Shown one piece after another: positions 55,931-64,000 of a DNA stretch of 64,000 nucleotides. The position numbers and the translations under genes are program-made. The DNA is from a plasmid: assembly GCF_054482525.1 (NCBI RefSeq), contig NZ_JBTHVG010000003.1. One strand, 5' to 3'. The notes beneath the pieces were generated by a model that worked only from the letters and a program-made list of their open reading frames with translations, was not told the origin of the DNA and did not search any database. How positions within the stretch are numbered: position 1 is the stretch's first letter; each line of letters begins with the position of its first letter.

Positions 55931-58387
55931 TTATTTTAATTCTTCAATGTTAATCATGAACTCAGATCTGCCAGTAAGGCCGGATACAGCAGGGAAAATA
56001 GGAAAGCTACGGCTGTCCCCGAGCCCCAAATCCAGTTGAAGCTCTTTGCTTTCACCTGGCATCGCAGAAACGCCATTTACAGTCACGCCGAATGCAGCGT
56101 CCTTACGGACAGTAAGCACTGCGTCCTGAAGCCCTGTAGCGATTGAACCATCCTTTTTACGCAGCTGGCTGGCATACAGAACAGCCAGAGCAGTATTGTC
56201 AGATGTTTTGAGAGAAGCATTGACAGCTAAGGTTTTCAGATTCTCTAGCCTGACGAGATTGTTTGGAAGGTAGTTAAATTCGACTGAGCTTTCTTTAACG
56301 TTGTTCATCTCATCTTTGGCCTGAACTGTGAGAGTGTATGTTTCGCCTTCATTAAGAGACGGAAAGATCTTGGGATAATTAGGTGCATACAGGTTGTTTC
56401 CCAGATTCACCCAAGACAATTCCACCGCATCAGAAACAGGGCCACCGCGAAGAGTCATACGGCTTAAGGATGGTTTAGTTAGAGCATCGGTGAGCTGTAT
56501 ACGGACGTTCTCCAGCCCATATACTGTTACGTTTTTGCTGATCGGTTTTCCTTCGTAGCTAATACTTACAGATGGTGCTGTATTATCAACGACAACTGTT
56601 TGATAAGGGAGGTTACCGGTATTGTTGAATGTATCTTGGGCATTAATCACCACGTTATAACTGCCTTCTGGTACCTCTTTCATGTTGAACTCATACGTGT
56701 AGTTCCCAGACGCCATATTTCTACCTGTTTGTTTGCCGGTTACGCTTATTTCTGCGTTGTTACGGTTTTTATCTGACAACCAAACTCGATTTACATAAAC
56801 ATGGTCGAAATATGAACCATCTCCAGGTTGATTCACGTAAACCTGGAGAATGTTGGTGGTTTCATTGTAATCAAATCCAGTGACGGAGGGACCCAGTGTA
56901 TGCCAGGCTATATTCTCCCATATAGGGGCAAAGAAGGTTGCTTCGGTGGTTGACCTTACTTCATAGCCACTATGAAGATAACCGGTAGTGCCATTTATAA
57001 TATCCTGGGGCAAAGAGACGGTACAGGTTGTTGAGCCAGCTGGAATACTGCATGTTGCTCCGCCAGTGATTTTTTGATCATATGGCCTGGCCTGTACATT
57101 GAATCGGATATTAGTAAGTTTTATAGGCATATCAGATGCCTTGAACAGGTTCCAGTTTACGCTGTTGAACCATGTTCCATCAGCCTTTTGTCGTTCTATG
57201 GGTGAACTTCCCCAAGCCGGACTCTTTACAGAGGCAGGATCCCAGTTGAGCCAGCTGGCATACTGACCAAGATCTCCTCCAGACCATTGATATGTATTCA
57301 CAGGTCTATAGTAGTTTCCATCTAAGGCACCCTGTGGCAGCTTAACTTCCACGTAGACATAGGTGGCATCTTCGGAAAGGACCTGTACTCCGCCATAGTT
57401 ATTGGTAATGCTCATGCCACCATTTCGATATGGCTTCCAGTTAGTTCTTGGGATACGTATAACCAACTTGTAGGGGTTTTCCAGCACTGTAAGGCCTCGT
57501 TTAAACGGGACGTATCCCGAAGAAATGCCGGGTACAACACTGGTGCTTACACGTGAGTCATGAACTGCAAATGGCGTAAATTCTCCCATTTGATCGTCAT
57601 ATAAAAACCGCTGGGGAGGAATGTTAAGCGTATTTCCTGCCAGGTCCGTAACGATGAAATTGAAGGTGAATTCTTCATCAAGATCACTTGAGGGCATGCC
57701 AGCCTGGGTGTTCATATCTTTAATCCACGGATAGACCGCACGTTTATTGGCTGTGTCATAACTCAGGTTATTGTCGGAGACCACAGAACCATTACTTCGT
57801 TTAATGACAAGACGGATCTTGTCAATTCCACTAGCATCCTCAATACCGTCTGCAAATATAGAAAACTGGCCACTACCGCCTCGGCCCAACTCCCAAAGTG
57901 GCCCAGAAAGTACCATGTCGTAACCTGCGTTTTGACTCGGATAAATACTCTTATAGCGTGGAGGAGTTGTATCAACGATGAAATGATAAGTAGATGTGCT
58001 CACTACAGTCTGGCGAATATCCAGAGTTTCATTGACTACAGTAAAGGTCCCTTCTCCGAGCGCCGGTAGAACCATATCCTTTCCATAGTATTCTGTTCCA
58101 TCGGCAGCAACGATACGATCTGCAACGCTCGTTTTGGTCGAGACGGAGGAATACATAACCTTTTTATCGCTGTCTCGTGTGACCGTCACTCGCTCGTACC
58201 GATCAAGACCCGATATCAAGTTCAGAGTCAAAACACCAGCGGGATTAAGATATGTTTGTGTTGCAGGTTTGATATTCCGAACAGCCTTATTGGTATCTGT
58301 AAATGAGTAGCTAAATACCTGAGCATGTGCCGAAGATACAGTAGCAAGGGCAGTTGCAACCATGCAGCCAATTAGAGTTTTACGCAT
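55931..58387 (-). CDS. Secreted Ig-like (Big-domain) surface protein, paralog 3 of 3
   Basis: Signal peptide; ISGLDRY; D-x-AGN repeats; C-terminal LDLGLGDSRSFPIFP; GGAG upstream of ATG. Confidence 0.6.
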   Translation of the reverse strand: MRKTLIGCMVATALATVSSAHAQVFSYSFTDTNKAVRNIKPATQTYLNPAGVLTLNLISGLDRYERVTVTRDSDKKVMYSSVSTKTSVADRIVAADGTEYYGKDMVLPALGEGTFTVVNETLDIRQTVVSTSTYHFIVDTTPPRYKSIYPSQNAGYDMVLSGPLWELGRGGSGQFSIFADGIEDASGIDKIRLVIKRSNGSVVSDNNLSYDTANKRAVYPWIKDMNTQAGMPSSDLDEEFTFNFIVTDLAGNTLNIPPQRFLYDDQMGEFTPFAVHDSRVSTSVVPGISSGYVPFKRGLTVLENPYKLVIRIPRTNWKPYRNGGMSITNNYGGVQVLSEDATYVYVEVKLPQGALDGNYYRPVNTYQWSGGDLGQYASWLNWDPASVKSPAWGSSPIERQKADGTWFNSVNWNLFKASDMPIKLTNIRFNVQARPYDQKITGGATCSIPAGSTTCTVSLPQDIINGTTGYLHSGYEVRSTTEATFFAPIWENIAWHTLGPSVTGFDYNETTNILQVYVNQPGDGSYFDHVYVNRVWLSDKNRNNAEISVTGKQTGRNMASGNYTYEFNMKEVPEGSYNVVINAQDTFNNTGNLPYQTVVVDNTAPSVSISYEGKPISKNVTVYGLENVRIQLTDALTKPSLSRMTLRGGPVSDAVELSWVNLGNNLYAPNYPKIFPSLNEGETYTLTVQAKDEMNNVKESSVEFNYLPNNLVRLENLKTLAVNASLKTSDNTALAVLYASQLRKKDGSIATGLQDAVLTVRKDAAFGVTVNGVSAMPGESKELQLDLGLGDSRSFPIFPAVSGLTGRSEFMINIEELK

Positions 58388-58543
58388 ATGATGCTCCGGG
58401 AATAGGTTATAGCCTTATTCTACGGATTCAGCCTACAAGGTCCGGTCGGATAAAGTGATAATTTGCCTGTTAAAAGAGACATCAAGTGAGAAAGCAACCA
58501 ACGTACAGAATGCAAAATGGCGGCAGTGCATCTGGATGACGCA

Positions 58544-58554
58544 AAAGTAACTTT
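58544..58554. promoter_or_regulatory. Palindrome copy upstream of Ig-like paralog 3
   Basis: AAAAGTAACTTTTT, about 160 nt upstream of the start at 58387. Confidence 0.5.
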
Positions 58555-58608
58555 TTGTATCCACTTTTTTGGATTTTAGCCTTCAAAATGAGTATTCAAC
58601 CAATCATA

Positions 58609-58619
58609 AAAGTAACTTT
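58609..58619. promoter_or_regulatory. Palindrome copy upstream of Ig-like paralog 3
   Basis: AAAAGTAACTTTTG, about 225 nt upstream of the start at 58387. Confidence 0.5.
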
Positions 58620-58881
58620 TGATAGACGCTGCTCCTTTATGTTTGCCAATTGTGCTGATATGTTTGTAAATTCAAGGAAGCGAGATTTTAAAAGCATCTG
58701 TTGAGTCAAATTTATGTAAAATAACAGGGAAACCATCACTTCTAGGTTGAGGAAACCCAATGTTATACATGCTCTTATGCTGTTTTCTGATAGACTGGCC
58801 CCCTGAATCTCCAGACAACCAATATCACTTAAATAAGTGATAGTCTTAATACTAGTTTTTAGACTAGTCATTGGAGAGCAG

Positions 58882-59247
58882 ATGATTGATGTCTTAGGAC
58901 CGGAGAAACGCAGACGGCGTACTACACAGGAAAAGATCGCTATTGTTCAGCAGAGCTTTGAACCGGGAATGACGGTCTCCCTTGTTGCCCGGCAACACGG
59001 TGTGGCAGCCAGCCAGTTATTTCTCTGGCGCAAGCAATACCAGGAGGGAAGTCTTACTGCTGTGGCCGCAGGAGAACAGGTCGTTCCTGCCTCTGAACTT
59101 GCTGCTGCCATGAAGCAGATTAAAGAACTCCAGCGCCTGCTCGGCAAAAAAACGATGGAAAATGAACTCCTTAAAGAAGCCGTTGAATACGGGCGTGCAA
59201 AAAAGTGGATAGCGCACGCGCCCTTATTGCCCGGGGATGGGGAGTAA
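58882..59247 (+). CDS. insC: IS2 orfA (InsC)
   Basis: [18 protein letters not shown]...; GGAGAG upstream. Confidence 0.85.
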
Positions 59248-60110
59248 GCTTAGTCAGCCGTTGTCTCCGGGTGTCGCGTGCGCAGTTGCACGTCATTCTC
59301 AGACGAACCGATGACTGGAAAGATGGTCGCCGCAGCCGTCACTCAGATGATACGGATGTGCTTCTCCGTATACACCATGTTATCGGAGAGCTGCCCACGT
59401 ATGGTTATCGTCGGGTATGGGCGCTGCTTCGCAGACAGGCCGAACTTGATGGTATGCCTGCTATCAATGCCAAACGTGTTTACCGGATCATGCGCCAGAA
59501 TGCGCTGTTGCTTGAGCGAAAAACCGCTGTACCGCCATCGAAACGGGCACATACTGGCAAAGTGGCCGTGAAAGAAAGCAATCAACGATGGTGCTCTGAC
59601 GGGTTCGAGTTCCGCTGTGATAACGGAGAAAAACTGCGAGTCACGTTCGCGCTGGACTGCTGTGACCGTGAGGCACTGCACTGGGCAGTCACTACGGGCG
59701 GCTTCGACAGTGAAACAGTACAGGACGTAATGCTGGGAGCGGTGGAACGCCGCTTCGGCAACGAGCTTCCGGCGTCTCCAGTAGAGTGGCTGACGGATAA
59801 TGGTTCATGCTACCGGGCTAATGAAACACGGCAGTTTGCCCGGATGTTGGGGCTTGAACCGAAGAACACGGCGGTGCGGAGTCCGGAGAGTAACGGCATA
59901 GCAGAGAGCTTCGTGAAAACGATAAAGCGTGACTACATCAGTATCATGCCTAAACCAGACGGGTTAACGGCAGCAAAGAACCTTGCAGAGGCGTTCGAGC
60001 ATTATAACGAATGGCATCCGCATAGTGCACTGGGTTATCGCTCGCCACGGGAATATCTACGGCAGCGGGCCAGTAATGGGTTAAGTGATAACAGGTGTCT
60101 GGAAATATAG
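59205..60110 (+). CDS. insD: IS2 orfB (InsD), DDE transposase
   Basis: 301 aa; overlaps orfA in the -1 frame. Confidence 0.85.
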
Positions 60111-60264
60111 GGGCAAATCCATCTGATGCTCAACAGTACATTCGTTATGTTCAGAGCAATGTCTGCAATAAGTAAAGGATCCGCTAAAGAAAACCGGTCT
60201 GAAATATCGCTGATAGTCCTAGCAACACTTGGAATCGCATCACCATTCAGGTAATGACTCCAAC

Positions 60265-60768
60265 TTATTGATAGTGTTTTATGTTCAGATAATGCCCGAT
60301 GACTTTGTCATGCAGCTCCACCGATTTTGAAAACGACAGCGACTTCCGTCCCAGCCGTGCCAGGTGCTGCCTCAGATTCAGGTTATGCCGCTCAATTCGC
60401 TGCGTATATCGCTTGCTGATTACGTGCAGCTTTCCCTTCAGGCGGGATTCATACAGCGGCCAGCCATCCGTCATCCATATCACCACGTCAAAGGGTGACA
60501 GCAGGCTCATAAGACGCCCCAGCGTCGCCATAGTGCGTTCACCGAATACGTGCGCAACAACCGTCTTCCGGAGCCTGTCATACGCGTAAAACAGCCAGCG
60601 CTGGCGCGATTTAGCCCCGACGTATCCCCACTGTTCGTCCATTTCCGCGCAGACGATGACGTCACTGCCCGGCTGTATGCGCGAGGTTACCGACTGCGGC
60701 CTGAGTTTTTTAAGTGACGTAAAATCGTGTTGAGGCCAACGCCCATAATGCGGGCGGTTGCCCGGCAT
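60265..60768 (-). CDS. insB: IS1 InsB (expressed as an InsAB' frameshift fusion)
   Basis: 167-aa ORF overlapping insA. Confidence 0.85.
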
Positions 60769-60962
60769 CCAACGCCATTCATGGCCATATCAATGATTTT
60801 CTGGTGCGTACCGGGTTGAGAAGCGGTGTAAGTGAACTGCAGTTGCCATGTTTTACGGCAGTGAGAGCAGAGATAGCGCTGATGTCCGGCGGTGCTTTTG
60901 CCGTTACGCACCACTCCGTCAGTAGCTGAACAGGAGGGACAGCTGATAGAAACAGAAGCCAC
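60687..60962 (-). CDS. insA: IS1 InsA
   Basis: 91 aa with Zn-finger CPSC...CSHC. Confidence 0.85.
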
Positions 60963-61034
60963 TGGAGCACCTCAAAAACACCATCATACACTAAATCAGT
61001 AAGTTGGCAGCATCACCCACCATTCATTGTCGCA

Positions 61035-61499
61035 ATGATTACTATTAATGAAAGTATGACATCTAAAACAGTAACAGATTTTTCTTTGGGTGCTCAGTGG
61101 TACGGAATGGTTTCAGCGGTAGCGCTAATGGGGTTATATGCTCGACGCGTTTGGAAAGAGAAGAAGTCCTTATTTACTGGCGCTTTCCTGGCCTCTTCCT
61201 TAATGGCCTTTATTTTTACTGACAGCCTTGTTTTCGTATCCCAGAAGGACACCGGCGTTCTGGCTACTTTCGTACTCGATAAAAACGCTGGAGATATTGA
61301 TTGTAGTCGCCCGGCTATGATTGTCCATTACAGTAAAGGTGTTCCAACGGACTGGCGTTGCCCAACCAGTATCATGTTGATGGCGTATTCTTCATATCCT
61401 TTTTTACCCTGGCCTGAGTATAGCCATGGTACCAGCCAGTCTCTTACGGTTGTTATTGATACATTTATGGAAAACGCTGTTAATCTCAGCCAAAAATAA
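61035..61499 (+). CDS. Hypothetical membrane protein
   Basis: 154 aa with hydrophobic helices; begins 18 nt after the IS1 end. Confidence 0.4.
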   Translation: MITINESMTSKTVTDFSLGAQWYGMVSAVALMGLYARRVWKEKKSLFTGAFLASSLMAFIFTDSLVFVSQKDTGVLATFVLDKNAGDIDCSRPAMIVHYSKGVPTDWRCPTSIMLMAYSSYPFLPWPEYSHGTSQSLTVVIDTFMENAVNLSQK

Positions 61500-61556
61500 A
61501 AAATAAACCTCACTAGTGAGAGGTTTTATAAACCTGAGCCACCAATCTAATTAACT

Positions 61557-61838
61557 CTATATTTTTGTTTTAGCTTTTTTAAAGATAGACTTACCGAATA
61601 AAACAGCAATTATAGAGCAAAGGCCTGGCGTTAGGACAAAAGCTAATAATGCACTGCCAAAACTTGTCATTTCAGGCACCAGGAACCAGCTGATAGGCCA
61701 CGTCAGGGCTGGTAAATTTAGCGGATCATAAAGCGCATGTAGAGCGCTTAACACACAGTAAAGTGCTAAAAAGCAAACTAGATAAACAACGATCCACATT
61801 TTAATTTGCTCAGCAATTTCAAATTTTGGACTGCCCAT
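61557..61838 (-). CDS. Small membrane protein
   Basis: 93 aa, three hydrophobic segments; overlaps the upstream gene by 20 nt. Confidence 0.4.
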   Translation of the reverse strand: MGSPKFEIAEQIKMWIVVYLVCFLALYCVLSALHALYDPLNLPALTWPISWFLVPEMTSFGSALLAFVLTPGLCSIIAVLFGKSIFKKAKTKI

Positions 61839-62280
61839 GCTTTACCTCAGTGGCTGAATATTGATGGTTAATATCTTTAATCACCCGTAAGCACTTAGTG
61901 CATACCTTAGTTCGATTTGTCTGCTTGTCCAGAGTGTATTTAACTTCAAGTTGACCTCCAGCATTAAGCAAAGTGAGCATCTCATCTTCTAACACGCTTC
62001 GGTAAATGGTCTTGGCCGAGAGTGTGCCCGGTAACGAGTACTCAACATAATTGTTTGAAACTCTTACCGATTTAGGGATTTTACCACTGAGCTGGGTTTC
62101 ATTCGTTGAAGGCATTACAGTTACTTTAATCACAGTTGCCGGTGACCAGAAATCCTGATAACGCACTTTATGAATTTTATCAGCTCTAAGGCCTAACCAC
62201 ACATTTCCGGCGATAAGAACAATAAGCAATCCATAAACTGATCGTCGAATGTTACGCCTTTTAATCACAATGTCCCCCAT
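61819..62280 (-). CDS. Hypothetical protein with N-terminal transmembrane anchor
   Basis: 153-aa ORF. Confidence 0.45.
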   Translation of the reverse strand: MGDIVIKRRNIRRSVYGLLIVLIAGNVWLGLRADKIHKVRYQDFWSPATVIKVTVMPSTNETQLSGKIPKSVRVSNNYVEYSLPGTLSAKTIYRSVLEDEMLTLLNAGGQLEVKYTLDKQTNRTKVCTKCLRVIKDINHQYSATEVKHGQSKI

Positions 62281-62328
62281 CCCTCAAATATCATTCTAAA
62301 TAACTGCACCAGGATATCATGAGCGTAA

Positions 62329-62505
62329 TTAATAGAATTCTTCATAACCGGGGTTTTCAGTTGAGTTTGCGGACTCTTTACTTTGCGGTTTCTCACCCTC
62401 TAGTTGAGTATCCCTGACAGGCTTGGATTTACCCATGCTCCTCTGAAAGGTATCCATAACAAACTCAATATCTTCTTCTGGCAGGCTGGTGGGTTGGTTG
62501 CTCAT
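62329..62505 (-). CDS. Small acidic protein (58 aa), translationally coupled to the upstream methyltransferase gene
   Basis: ATG overlaps the TGA of the upstream gene (ATGA); hand-translated as MSNQPTSLPEEDIEFVMDTFQRSMGKSKPVRDTQLEGEKPQSKESANSTENPGYEEFY; below the ORF-track size cut-off. Confidence 0.3.
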   Translation of the reverse strand: MSNQPTSLPEEDIEFVMDTFQRSMGKSKPVRDTQLEGEKPQSKESANSTENPGYEEFY

Positions 62506-64000
62506 AGGACTTCCTCTTGTTGAATACGTTCGGCGTACAGGATGCGAACCGAAACGGTCGTGTTTTCAAACTCGTTCTCAAAAACGTCCATCCATTCCGT
62601 CCGGAATTCTTCCCCCAAAAGGTTATCGAGCCCCTGAAGAGATAATGGAAGAACGGCTGCTAGAGATCCCCCGGCTGCGAGATGAGATGCAGCTGCCTGG
62701 AGATGCAGCCTGGCCCGGTTATCGGCAAAAGGTGGGTTCATCACGACATAATCAAACTTCTTCTGTTGATTAGACTTAGACCATGTGAGGAAGTCAGCTT
62801 CTGTCGTATCGTATCCCTTAGCCCGGGAGATAAGGCAATTCAAAGTATCAAGCTCGATGCCAGTAACGATCACACCGGCAGGGAATGATTTAAGCAAATC
62901 CGCATGGCCAATATTAGGCTCCAGGAGGGTATCCCCTTCCCCTGCACCAAGCAGGGAAGATACATATTCGCTGATTCGGCAAGATGAAGGGTAAAACTGA
63001 TGCGATACAATATCAGGCATCTCCCCTATCTGGCCGATGTAACGAATAACCTCACACGGATCATAGGAAAATGTCACATCGTATTTTGTTACTGTTGCCC
63101 CTAAGAACCGAAGGGTGTCAGCGGCAACACTCGAAGATTTGCGTTCGGCGAGAGACCCTAAAGATGTCCAGCAACTCCATTTATTGTCCCCGTCATTTTT
63201 AAACATCAGTTCAGAAAGCTGCATCCGGGTATCAAAGTCGATGCACTGCTTAAGTACAGGGAATGCCTCCAAAGATTTCTTGCTATGAGCCATACGGTCG
63301 GCAGGTAATGCCAGCGGTACGATAGCTGATAAAATATTGTTAAGCCGCTCGGCGATATCAGGGTGGACGTCAATATGCATTGATCCATTTTTGTAAACCC
63401 TGAAACGAATACTGTTGCCATCGATGCAGATCCATTTTCTGAACCCCTCATGTTCGACCAACGCCTCAACCAATGATTTGGTGTTATGGATCGCCTTCAC
63501 CTGTTCGCCACGGAAGAATGCGCATATAACGCGGAGCTCGCTCAGCGGTGAAATGCCAGACTCTTTAAAATCCACCCTTAATTTCTGCCAGGGGTATTTA
63601 GACGGCTCGCAAACTCCGGTAGTGATCATGCGGGTGGAGAACCCAAAAGCTTTGTTTGTCTTGTGACTGCGGCTCAGAGACTGGAAGACGTCGTAAACCC
63701 TTTCTTTAATAAATTGATTGCGGTCATTAAGCAAAGCAACGACTGTGCCCACTACAGCGTCAGCTGTGAAATCAGGGATCACCTGAGGCGGCATAATATA
63801 ACGGTCGGCCGTAAACTGCTTATCCCATTCGTTACGTTTGGCATCCGACATGATAGGCAAAACATCAGTGAGTGCCATAACGCATTTCCAGTATTCTGAT
63901 CTCAGAGCGTTTTCTGCGAACAAAGCATCCGCTTCTGAGATGCTGTGGTTGTAGCCTGAGAGATAAGAATAAAGTTTCTGGTGATTGTGGGTTTTGAACT
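62502..64000 (-). CDS. Protein with C-terminal N6-adenine methyltransferase domain; N-terminus outside the window
   Basis: Motif I LEPNIGHADL and motif IV YVVMNPPF in the C-terminal third; the frame stays open upstream of the listed TTG through nt 64000. Confidence 0.55.
   Translation of the reverse strand, partial: FKTHNHQKLYSYLSGYNHSISEADALFAENALRSEYWKCVMALTDVLPIMSDAKRNEWDKQFTADRYIMPPQVIPDFTADAVVGTVVALLNDRNQFIKERVYDVFQSLSRSHKTNKAFGFSTRMITTGVCEPSKYPWQKLRVDFKESGISPLSELRVICAFFRGEQVKAIHNTKSLVEALVEHEGFRKWICIDGNSIRFRVYKNGSMHIDVHPDIAERLNNILSAIVPLALPADRMAHSKKSLEAFPVLKQCIDFDTRMQLSELMFKNDGDNKWSCWTSLGSLAERKSSSVAADTLRFLGATVTKYDVTFSYDPCEVIRYIGQIGEMPDIVSHQFYPSSCRISEYVSSLLGAGEGDTLLEPNIGHADLLKSFPAGVIVTGIELDTLNCLISRAKGYDTTEADFLTWSKSNQQKKFDYVVMNPPFADNRARLHLQAAASHLAAGGSLAAVLPLSLQGLDNLLGEEFRTEWMDVFENEFENTTVSVRILYAERIQQEEVL

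What the first reader, a model, noticed from the sequence alone, without database searches (positions are those of the whole stretch)
62329..64000. Minus-strand operon: methyltransferase-domain gene translationally coupled to a 58-aa acidic ORF and two membrane proteins
The ATGA overlap at 62502-62505 couples a small acidic ORF, below the ORF-track cut-off, to the methyltransferase gene. Two membrane-protein genes (61819-62280 and 61557-61838) follow with a 20-nt overlap. Pairing a methyltransferase domain with small acidic and membrane proteins is unusual.
Basis: seen in the sequence. Interest (0 to 1): 0.3.

Follow-up and report, generated by a model that had tools for sequence, protein, structure and literature searches.

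The report
IncHI plasmid methylase with tiny acidic partner
This is the backbone of a well-sequenced IncHI2 resistance plasmid: an orphan methyltransferase gene followed by a real, conserved but uncharacterised 58-residue acidic protein gene. The two small membrane-protein genes behind them occur only in IncHI2, so the four-gene combination is mostly an accident of position.

Summary
The ATGA overlap at 62502-62505, the 58-aa acidic ORF (pI 4.4), and the two small hydrophobic ORFs overlapping by 20 nt are all present, and terminators bound the unit.

Three corrections apply:
- The window is an IncHI2 plasmid, 100% identical to more than 200 sequenced E. coli plasmids, and RefSeq already annotates all four ORFs.
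- The methyltransferase gene is cut by the window end. The real protein is 563 aa, with an N-terminal DUF4942 region and a C-terminal TaqI/METTL5-like NPPF Rossmann domain. No nuclease gene is recognisable nearby, so it looks like an orphan.
It lies -4 to +14 nt after the methyltransferase gene in seven IncHI-type lineages, is always 56-62 aa and acidic, has a Shine-Dalgarno site, and shows dN/dS of about 0.1-0.3. It has no relatives elsewhere.

The membrane pair is different. It is an IncHI2-only ORFan pair with lower GC, absent from the other six lineages and deleted in one IncHI2 plasmid.

The conserved unit is therefore a methyltransferase plus acidic-peptide bicistron. I infer plasmid DNA modification with an accessory partner; binding is untested, and a fusion model left the peptide disordered. 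Interest is low to moderate.

The parts
62502..64000 (-). 3' 88% of the gene for a 563-aa DUF4942-type class I SAM-dependent (N/D)PP(F/Y) methyltransferase. The true start lies 193 nt beyond the window end.
   Evidence: 100% identity to IncHI2 plasmids, where the CDS is 1692 nt (WP_042634269.1). Pfam DUF4942 E=6.7e-22. phrog_6263 'DNA methyltransferase' E=1.4e-111 over residues 37-556.
63324..63908 (-). Region encoding the DUF4942 domain (residues ~96-290 of the full protein).
   Evidence: Pfam PF13708 match at 6-200 of the 473-aa in-window fragment. The same domain occurs alone in ~285-aa proteins located among ssb, ardA and psiA in IncL/M and IncK plasmids.
62526..62996 (-). Region encoding the catalytic Rossmann methyltransferase domain (residues ~400-556). 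It includes motif I LLEPNIGHA and motif IV NPPF (NPPF at 62727-62738).
62502..62505 (-). ATGA stop/start overlap between the methyltransferase gene and the small ORF, with GAGGA Shine-Dalgarno at 62512-62516.
   Evidence: Read directly from the sequence.
62329..62505 (-). Gene for a 58-aa acidic protein, predicted disordered. It is the founding IncHI2 member of a small orphan family.
   Evidence: Conserved in position, size (56-62 aa), acidity (pI 4.05-4.46) and core motif F-[VA]-[MI]-D-x-F ... K-[PK]-V in seven lineages. dN/dS 0.11-0.30 where measurable. An exhaustive profile search found only this clade.
61819..62280 (-). IncHI2-specific ORFan gene for a 153-aa basic protein with an N-terminal signal-anchor-like segment. 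A possible alternative GTG start lies at 62268.
   Evidence: Only IncHI2 homologues at 95% identity or more. All three differences between the two IncHI2 lineages change the protein, so there is no comparative proof of coding.
61557..61838 (-). IncHI2-specific ORFan gene for a 93-aa protein with two hydrophobic helices. Its GAGG Shine-Dalgarno lies inside the end of the 153-aa gene.
61495..61526 (-). Intrinsic-terminator-like hairpin plus T-run that closes the unit. It lies between the unit and the convergent gene.
   Evidence: Terminator scan on the identical locus (L001 8821-8842). Fold z-score -3.5.
61035..61499 (+). Convergent gene for a multi-pass membrane protein (208 aa when intact). 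Here an IS1 insertion ending near 61017 has removed its first ~48 codons.
   Evidence: The match to intact plasmids stops at window 61018. The intact CDS is WP_000966519.1. IS1 InsA/InsB ORFs lie at 60265-60962.

Best explanation
The region is backbone DNA of an IncHI2 conjugative plasmid.

The conserved functional unit is a two-gene operon.
- Gene 1 encodes a 563-aa orphan amino-methyltransferase. It has an N-terminal DUF4942 region of unknown role and a C-terminal gamma-type Rossmann domain with intact SAM-binding and NPPF catalytic motifs. Its closest relatives are N6-adenine DNA methyltransferases such as M.TaqI and M.BseCI.
- Gene 2 is translated by ribosomes that terminate on gene 1, through the ATGA overlap here and a 9-14 nt spacer with its own Shine-Dalgarno site in relatives. 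It encodes a 56-62 aa, strongly acidic, probably disordered protein under purifying selection.

Inferred mechanism:
- The enzyme methylates adenines in plasmid and host DNA without a cognate nuclease. Orphan methyltransferases of phages and plasmids do this to escape restriction in new hosts or to set epigenetic marks.
- The acidic peptide is made alongside it and acts as its accessory partner, either as a modulator or a stabiliser.

The two small membrane-protein genes belong to an IncHI2-only, lower-GC cassette, as does the convergent membrane-protein gene. The pair sits between the small ORF and the terminator, so it is probably co-transcribed by position, not because it works with the methyltransferase.

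Shown:
- gene structures, coupling and conservation;
- lineage restriction of the membrane pair;
- catalytic fold and motifs;
- absence of a recognisable nuclease.

Inferred:
- DNA as substrate;
- the protective or epigenetic role;
- any physical or functional link between the peptide and the enzyme.
For: - Identity: 100% match to 226 or more E. coli IncHI2 plasmids, with annotation.
- Enzyme family: DUF4942 and phrog_6263 'DNA methyltransferase' at E=1e-111. PADLOC gives only weak Type II/orphan MTase models and no defence-system partner. M.TaqI is the best solved-structure sequence match.
- Mobile-element distribution: homologues sit in SSU5-type phage-plasmids, temperate Pseudomonas and Aeromonas phages, and a lambdoid prophage early region. 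They carry different neighbours there, as expected of a self-sufficient orphan enzyme.
- No nuclease: none was detected among the IncHI neighbours.
- Small ORF conservation: it is present directly after the methyltransferase gene in IncHI2, IncHI1A, IncHI1B and four metagenomic lineages whose methyltransferase is 54-64% identical.
- Small ORF selection: pN is below pS in every pair, and dN/dS is 0.11-0.30 against 0.08-0.11 for the methyltransferase.
- Small ORF boundaries: a Shine-Dalgarno site precedes it in each lineage. A GC-rich hairpin of divergent sequence follows it in all six non-IncHI2 lineages, closing a bicistron.
- Membrane pair: found only in IncHI2, GC 0.39-0.41 against 0.47, and deleted by IS66 in pKO_1, which keeps the methyltransferase and small ORF.
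Against: - No experiment or methylome links this enzyme to a DNA motif, and the paper searches found nothing.
- The NPPF Rossmann domain is equally close in structure to rRNA m6A enzymes such as METTL5 and KsgA/Erm, so an RNA target is not excluded.
- A methyltransferase-linker-peptide fusion model left the peptide unstructured and undocked, with pLDDT 32-44. This gives no support for a complex, although only six paired sequences were available.
- Methyltransferase homologues at 47% identity or below lack the peptide, so the enzyme does not need it.
- The peptide co-occurs just as perfectly with the downstream Ig-like conjugation genes as with this methyltransferase subclade.
- IncHI1A keeps a 105-nt relic of the convergent gene. 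Part of the IncHI2 cassette may therefore be ancestral and lost elsewhere, not newly inserted.
Confidence: 0.6

Rival explanations
1. The acidic peptide is an independent anti-restriction or anti-defence factor. It would act as a charge-based decoy like the DNA mimics Ocr, ArdA and Arn, but much smaller. It would be co-expressed with the methyltransferase so that the plasmid gets immediate inhibition of host nucleases plus lasting protection by methylation.
For: - Net charge is -6.5 to -11.4 in every lineage.
- It is coupled to an orphan methyltransferase on a conjugative plasmid.
- Stand-alone DUF4942 proteins lie among ardA, ssb and psiA in the leading regions of IncK and IncL/M plasmids. 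This ties the wider gene family to establishment functions.
Against: - No similarity to any known anti-restriction family: Pfam, PHROGs, PADLOC, NCBIfam and PDB are all negative.
- It is predicted disordered, whereas known DNA mimics are folded.
- No evidence was obtained that this locus lies in the IncHI leading region.
Confidence: 0.15
2. The small protein works with the downstream Ig-like (RSP-type) conjugation proteins, not with the methyltransferase. It might be an export or assembly factor, and its coupling to the methyltransferase gene would be only a way of being expressed.
For: - Every lineage that has the small ORF also has DUF4165/Big_3 Ig-like genes next downstream.
- The 47%-identity methyltransferase clade lacks both.
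- The Ig-like proteins are required for IncHI conjugation (PMC6764697).
Against: - The small ORF lies -4 to +14 nt from the methyltransferase gene.
- It lies 170-450 nt from the Ig-like gene, separated from it by a strong hairpin in all six non-IncHI2 lineages. In IncHI2 three other genes and a terminator intervene.
- It has no signal peptide and no hydrophobic segment.
Confidence: 0.1
3. The enzyme methylates RNA (rRNA or tRNA adenine, or another amino group) instead of DNA.
For: - METTL5-type enzymes depend on a small partner, TRMT112 (title of the 6h2u entry). This parallels the coupled small ORF.
Against: - The best sequence-profile match is M.TaqI.
- PHROGs and PADLOC matches are all DNA methyltransferase models.
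- The family lives on phages, prophage early regions and plasmids beside Dam and other DNA-metabolism genes.
- The peptide has no Zn-knuckle or Trm112 similarity.
Confidence: 0.1
4. All four genes form one functional system. The methyltransferase, acidic peptide and two membrane proteins would cooperate, for example in exclusion, defence or a membrane-anchored modification complex.
For: - The genes share one strand with overlaps or short gaps and no internal terminator. Terminators bound the unit on both sides in IncHI2.
Against: - The membrane pair is absent from six of the seven lineages that keep the first two genes.
- It has no homologues outside IncHI2 and different GC.
- It is dispensable in pKO_1.
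- It matches no PADLOC defence model.
- A weak promoter-like site lies in the 48-nt gap.
Confidence: 0.04
5. The 58-aa ORF is not a gene but a chance open frame.
For: - It is short, low in complexity, predicted disordered and has no database family.
Against: - The frame stays open at the same place in seven lineages even though synonymous sites are saturated.
- pN is below pS in all 15 pairs.
- The Shine-Dalgarno site and core motif are conserved.
Confidence: 0.01

Closest known systems
Gamma-class N6-adenine DNA methyltransferases (M.TaqI, M.BseCI, CamA)
   Same: - Rossmann fold.
- Motif I (ExxxGxG-like, LLEPNIGHA) precedes motif IV (NPPF).
   Different: - Those enzymes carry the target-recognition domain C-terminal to the catalytic domain.
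- Here the catalytic domain is at the extreme C-terminus, behind a ~400-aa DUF4942-containing region. The structure searches returned only catalytic-domain-length alignments for that region.
- No cognate endonuclease is present, and the specificity is unknown.
Phage and phage-plasmid DUF4942 methyltransferases (phrog_6263; SSU5_095 'putative DNA modification methylase'; phiPSA1, Aeromonas and Marinomonas phage homologues)
   Same: - The same full-length architecture at ~30% identity over 80-96% of the length.
   Different: - None of them is followed by the small acidic ORF.
METTL5-TRMT112 (an amino-methyltransferase that needs a small partner protein)
   Same: - NPPF chemistry.
- The idea of a small obligate partner.
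   Different: - The 58-aa protein has no Trm112 zinc-knuckle and no sequence similarity to it.
- It is predicted disordered, and the fusion model gave no interface.
- This is an analogy only.
Acidic DNA-mimic anti-restriction proteins (ArdA, Ocr, Arn)
   Same: - A strongly acidic product encoded on a mobile element next to DNA-modification genes.
   Different: - Those proteins are larger and folded.
- Here there is no homology and no predicted fold.
Stand-alone DUF4942 proteins of IncI/K, IncL/M and IncF plasmids
   Same: - They share the DUF4942 domain at 26-28% identity over residues 72-317.
- They are plasmid-borne.
   Different: - They are ~285 aa and lack the methyltransferase domain.
- They lie among ssb, ardA and psiA near oriT.

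Membership tests
Pfam PF13708 (DUF4942) | Score above the Pfam gathering threshold (25 bits). | tested here: met
   78.5 bits, E=6.7e-22, profile positions 3-186 of 190. All seven homologues tested also match.
Class I SAM-dependent (N/D)PP(F/Y/W) amino-methyltransferase | Rossmann fold with a glycine-rich SAM loop, the acidic residue after strand 2, and the NPPF catalytic motif. | tested here: met
   [not shown]
Gamma-class N6-adenine DNA methyltransferase (TaqI-like) | Motif I precedes motif IV, with sequence similarity to the family. | tested here: met
   The motif order can be read from the sequence. M.TaqI is the best PDB profile match at E=1.5e-6.
Gamma-class N6-adenine DNA methyltransferase (TaqI-like) | DNA is the substrate and m6A is formed at a defined motif. 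| not testable with these tools
   This needs a methylome or enzymology. The structural neighbours include rRNA enzymes at equal Z.
Gamma-class N6-adenine DNA methyltransferase (TaqI-like) | Target-recognition domain C-terminal to the catalytic domain. | tested here: not met
   The catalytic domain ends about 7 residues before the C-terminus. The extra ~400 aa are N-terminal.
Type II restriction-modification system | A cognate restriction endonuclease gene adjacent to the methyltransferase gene. | tested here: not met
   The neighbours are HTH_ParB proteins, Dam, a zinc-finger-like protein, hypothetical proteins and Ig-like proteins. There is no nuclease domain by Pfam or PADLOC. A nuclease of novel fold cannot be excluded.
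C-protein-controlled R-M (small controller gene coupled to the methyltransferase or endonuclease gene) | The small protein is a helix-turn-helix DNA binder. | tested here: not met
   There is no HTH match. The protein is acidic and predicted disordered.
DNA-mimic anti-restriction proteins (ArdA, Ocr, Arn) | Homology to, or a folded acidic surface mimicking, B-DNA. | tested here: not met
   No hits in Pfam, PADLOC, PHROGs or PDB. pLDDT is 32-44. Acidity is the only shared trait.
Trm112-type methyltransferase activator | Zn-knuckle or Trm112 fold, and a beta-zipper interface with the methyltransferase. | tested here: not met
   No cysteines, no Pfam Trm112 match and no modelled interface. The interface test is weak because it used a monomer model with a linker and only six paired sequences.
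   The methyltransferase and small ORF co-occur in all 7 IncHI-type lineages. The membrane pair occurs in 1 of 7.

The most novel reading that the evidence does not exclude
The 56-62 aa acidic, disordered protein is a new kind of dedicated partner for an orphan mobile-element methyltransferase. It might switch the enzyme's activity or specificity, or protect it. Alternatively it might be a minimal charge-decoy that blocks host restriction while the co-translated enzyme methylates the incoming plasmid. Either way IncHI resistance plasmids would carry a previously unrecognised two-part establishment module.
Probability: 0.2. Interest if true: 0.45.

Novelty: new member of a known kind. Interest (0 to 1): 0.2.

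Why it matters
IncHI2 plasmids are major carriers of mcr-1, carbapenemase genes and other resistance genes in Enterobacteriaceae. Their backbone genes are mostly uncharacterised.

- If the methyltransferase and its acidic partner help the plasmid survive restriction in new hosts, they would contribute to its broad host range and could be targets for blocking spread.
- The result also shows that apparent operon composition in one plasmid lineage can mislead. Only two of the four genes travel together.

As it stands, the finding is an annotated but unstudied orphan methyltransferase operon, not a new system.

Tried and rejected
- **Family searches for the small ORF and both membrane ORFs.** Pfam, NCBIfam, PADLOC, PHROGs and PDB gave nothing significant.
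- **Exhaustive profile search with the small ORF against 1.84 billion representatives.** It returned 16 hits, all from the IncHI clade apart from two spurious repeat or synthetic proteins.
- **Word-indexed search with the 153-aa protein.** It found only near-identical IncHI2 copies.
- **Fusion model to test docking.** AlphaFold on methyltransferase-(GGGGS)6-peptide with 6 paired and 22 unpaired rows left the peptide at pLDDT 32-44 with no interface. This is inconclusive, not negative.
- **Programmed recoding.** The idea that the peptide is a C-terminal extension of the methyltransferase is rejected. The two frames stand in different relations across lineages: a -4 overlap, a 14-nt spacer (out of frame) and a 9-nt spacer (in frame). 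Each lineage also has its own Shine-Dalgarno site and ATG.
- **Gene fission.** Rejected, because distant homologues of 530-570 aa align to the end of the 563-aa protein with no extra C-terminal segment.
- **'Lar family restriction alleviation' label.** This label on the Pseudomonas phage MR13 homologue has no Pfam support.
- **Rfam scan of 58000-64000.** No RNA family matched.
- **Literature.** Searches on DUF4942, IncHI methyltransferases, IncHI2 methylomes and the R27 Ig-like protein papers gave nothing on these genes.
- **AFDB structure search.** The afdb50 library was unavailable.
- **Coding test for the membrane pair.** The two IncHI2 sublineages differ at too few sites to test coding: 3 and 4 sites.
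Full report
**What the window is.** Bases 61018-64000 are 100% identical to 200-370 kb plasmids in at least 226 complete E. coli genomes. One example is pSJ_255, where the locus lies a few kb from repHI2. PLSDB types related records as IncHI2A, MOBH, MPF_F. The finding therefore lies in the backbone of a very well sequenced IncHI2 resistance plasmid. RefSeq already calls all four ORFs: a DUF4942 domain-containing protein and three hypothetical proteins.

**Check of the observation.** All details hold.
- The minus-strand sequence reads ...GAGGAAGTCCTATGAGCAAC... The methyltransferase stop TGA and the next ATG share ATGA at 62505-62502, and GAGGA lies 6 nt upstream.
- The 58-aa product has pI 4.37 and charge -6.5.
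- The 153-aa and 93-aa ORFs overlap by 20 nt (61819-61838). The 93-aa ORF has a GAGG site 6 nt before its ATG.
- The 93-aa protein has two clear hydrophobic helices. The 153-aa protein has a KRRNIRR + hydrophobic N-terminus.
- On the identical reference locus, one hairpin terminator lies between the upstream ParB-like gene and the methyltransferase gene. A second lies right after the 93-aa gene (window 61495-61526), and there is none in between.

Corrections:
- The methyltransferase gene is truncated by the window. Its true length is 563 aa, and its start lies 193 nt past position 64000.
- An ATGA overlap is the most ordinary kind of gene junction in bacteria.

**The methyltransferase.**
- Pfam finds DUF4942 in the N-terminal half (E=6.7e-22) and only weak methyltransferase models at the C-terminus. 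PHROGs matches phrog_6263 'DNA methyltransferase' end to end (E=1.4e-111).
- A 27-sequence alignment shows an invariant SAM loop (E425, G429), D467-F468, and N486-P487-P488 of NPPF.
- The best sequence-profile match among solved structures is M.TaqI.
- Viral structure matches are methyltransferase modules inside giant multi-domain phage proteins, as also seen with PHROGs.
- Full-length homologues at ~30% identity occur in SSU5-type phage-plasmids, in temperate Pseudomonas, Aeromonas and Marinomonas phages, and in a lambdoid prophage between the CII-like and DnaT/RusA genes. They also occur in other large MOBH plasmids. Each has different neighbours.
- No nuclease is detectable next to it in IncHI plasmids. 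The neighbours are two HTH_ParB proteins, Dam, a zinc-finger-like protein, hypothetical proteins and Ig-like proteins.
- I therefore read it as an orphan, mobile-element-type amino-methyltransferase, most probably acting on DNA adenine. The substrate is inferred, not shown.

**The 58-aa ORF is a real, conserved gene.**
- tblastn finds it in 1,386 plasmids in three identity bands: >90% (IncHI2), 61% (IncHI1A) and 53% (IncHI1B).
- In IncHI1A, IncHI1B and four metagenomic or draft-genome lineages (methyltransferase 64, 57, 56 and 54% identical), a 56-62 aa ORF always starts 9-14 nt after the methyltransferase stop. A Shine-Dalgarno site precedes it in each lineage.
- Peptide identity falls to 29%. 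Size, acidity (pI 4.05-4.46, charge -6.5 to -11.4) and the core F-[VA]-[MI]-D-x-F...K-[PK]-V persist.
- pN is below pS in all 15 pairs. dN/dS is 0.11, 0.28 and 0.30 in the least saturated pairs, against 0.08-0.11 for the methyltransferase.
- The family is tiny. An exhaustive HMM search of 1.84 billion representatives returned only this clade. A six-frame HMM scan of all fetched loci hit only the IncHI-type ones.
- The peptide is absent from the 47%-identity methyltransferase clade, which keeps the upstream Dam/ParB-like synteny but has no Ig-like genes downstream. It is also absent from all phage and plasmid homologues at ~30% identity.
- In the six non-IncHI2 lineages a GC-rich hairpin of unrelated sequence follows the small ORF within ~10-35 nt. 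The ancestral unit is therefore a methyltransferase-peptide bicistron.

**The membrane pair is a lineage-specific neighbour.**
- Both proteins occur only in IncHI2 plasmids at 95% identity or more. The only other hits are partial matches in two IncHI2-type plasmids, beside IS66 or IS91/IS3 elements.
- They are missing between the small ORF and the Ig-like gene in all six other lineages.
- Their GC is 0.39-0.41 against 0.47 for the methyltransferase.
- In pKO_1, IS66 has replaced them while the methyltransferase and small ORF remain.
- IncHI1A keeps a 105-nt relic (70% identity) of the convergent 208-aa membrane-protein gene. Part of the cassette therefore predates the HI1/HI2 split and was lost in HI1. 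Whether the pair was gained in HI2 or lost elsewhere cannot be decided.
- Between the two IncHI2 sublineages the 153-aa gene differs at three sites, all protein-changing and including an earlier stop. Comparative data cannot confirm that it codes.
- The function of the pair is unknown. No defence, exclusion or holin family matches.

**What the peptide does.**
- This is the weakest part of the account. A fusion model (methyltransferase, linker, peptide) kept the enzyme model unchanged and left the peptide disordered and undocked, with pLDDT 32-44.
- Tight coupling in seven lineages argues for co-production with the enzyme. I therefore favour an accessory or partner role.
- An independent acidic decoy (anti-restriction) role and a link to the Ig-like conjugation proteins remain open. 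The Ig-like genes co-occur perfectly with the peptide but are separated from it by a hairpin and 170-450 nt.
- Recoding and gene fission were excluded.

**Comparison with known systems.**
- The enzyme is a member of Pfam DUF4942 and of the NPPF amino-methyltransferase superfamily. It resembles gamma-class DNA methyltransferases in motif order, but its extra domains are on the opposite side.
- It fails the test for a Type II R-M system, since no nuclease is present. The peptide fails the tests for C-proteins, DNA mimics and Trm112.
- Stand-alone DUF4942 proteins sit among ssb, ardA and psiA near oriT in IncK and IncL/M plasmids. This hints at an establishment role for the domain, but I could not place the IncHI locus relative to oriT.

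**Verdict.**
The sequence, however, is a known, annotated plasmid backbone.
- The methyltransferase belongs to a widespread mobile-element family, and the 'unusual' pairing with membrane proteins is an IncHI2-specific juxtaposition.
- What remains of interest is an uncharacterised, clade-restricted acidic micro-protein coupled to an orphan methyltransferase.
- Interest is 0.2. Novelty: a new (uncharacterised) member of a known kind.

Noticed in passing
window 1707, 3145, 4875, 9777, 14826, 14952, 24741, 26948, 29679, 34728, 38940, 43109, 47929, 50153, 58544, 58609; also L001-L004, L009-L012, L016-L021: The 11-bp palindrome AAAGTNACTTT (core of AAAAGT-N-ACTTTT) occurs 16 times in the window, against 0.15 expected from shuffles (maximum 2). 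Ten of the 16 copies lie outside ORFs of 100 aa or more, several of them 90-220 nt upstream of minus-strand ORFs. It is conserved upstream of the Ig-like gene in six of the seven IncHI-type lineages that carry one, IncHI2 included (IncHI1B has a one-mismatch copy there). In several lineages it also lies between the Dam gene and the ParB-like gene that precedes the methyltransferase gene. It is absent from the unrelated plasmid and phage loci fetched. It looks like the operator of a plasmid-wide regulator. This recalls KorB (a ParB homologue) and its 12 operators on RK2, and two HTH_ParB genes lie beside the methyltransferase gene. A text search for the sequence found no relevant paper.
   Followed up: partly
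window ~60250-61017 (IS1) and 61035-61499: An IS1 copy (InsA/InsB ORFs at 60265-60962) is inserted into the convergent 208-aa membrane-protein gene (WP_000966519.1 in intact plasmids) and removes its first ~48 codons. Homology to uninterrupted IncHI2 plasmids stops at 61018.
   Followed up: partly
window 58837-60110: An IS3-family element with IS2-like InsC/InsD ORFs sits directly beside the IS1. This end of the window is a small IS pile-up between the methyltransferase locus and the Ig-like/repHI2 region.
   Followed up: no
L002 6898-6925, L003, L009, L010, L011, L021 (10-35 nt after the small ORF stop): A GC-rich hairpin follows the small ORF in every non-IncHI2 lineage. The sequences are unrelated and the T-runs are weak. 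The position is conserved without sequence conservation, which suggests a selected terminator or mRNA-stabilising structure.
   Followed up: partly
L002 6958-7060 against L001 8930-9034: The IncHI1A spacer between the small ORF and the Ig-like gene keeps a 105-nt, 70%-identical relic of the 3' part of the IncHI2 convergent membrane-protein gene. That gene was therefore present before the HI1/HI2 split.
   Followed up: partly
L013 5818-6678 (pOXA-48-like IncL/M) and L014 5722-6570 (pCT, IncK): Stand-alone DUF4942 proteins of ~285 aa with no methyltransferase domain lie among ssb, antirestriction, psiA and hha-like genes near oriT/mobA. DUF4942 is therefore an independent module of plasmid leading regions, and its function is unknown.
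   Followed up: partly
L023 2240-3871 (Pseudomonas phage MR13 gp23c): The depositor named the DUF4942 methyltransferase homologue 'restriction alleviation protein, Lar family'. Pfam finds only DUF4942 and a methyltransferase domain, so the label seems unfounded.
   Followed up: yes
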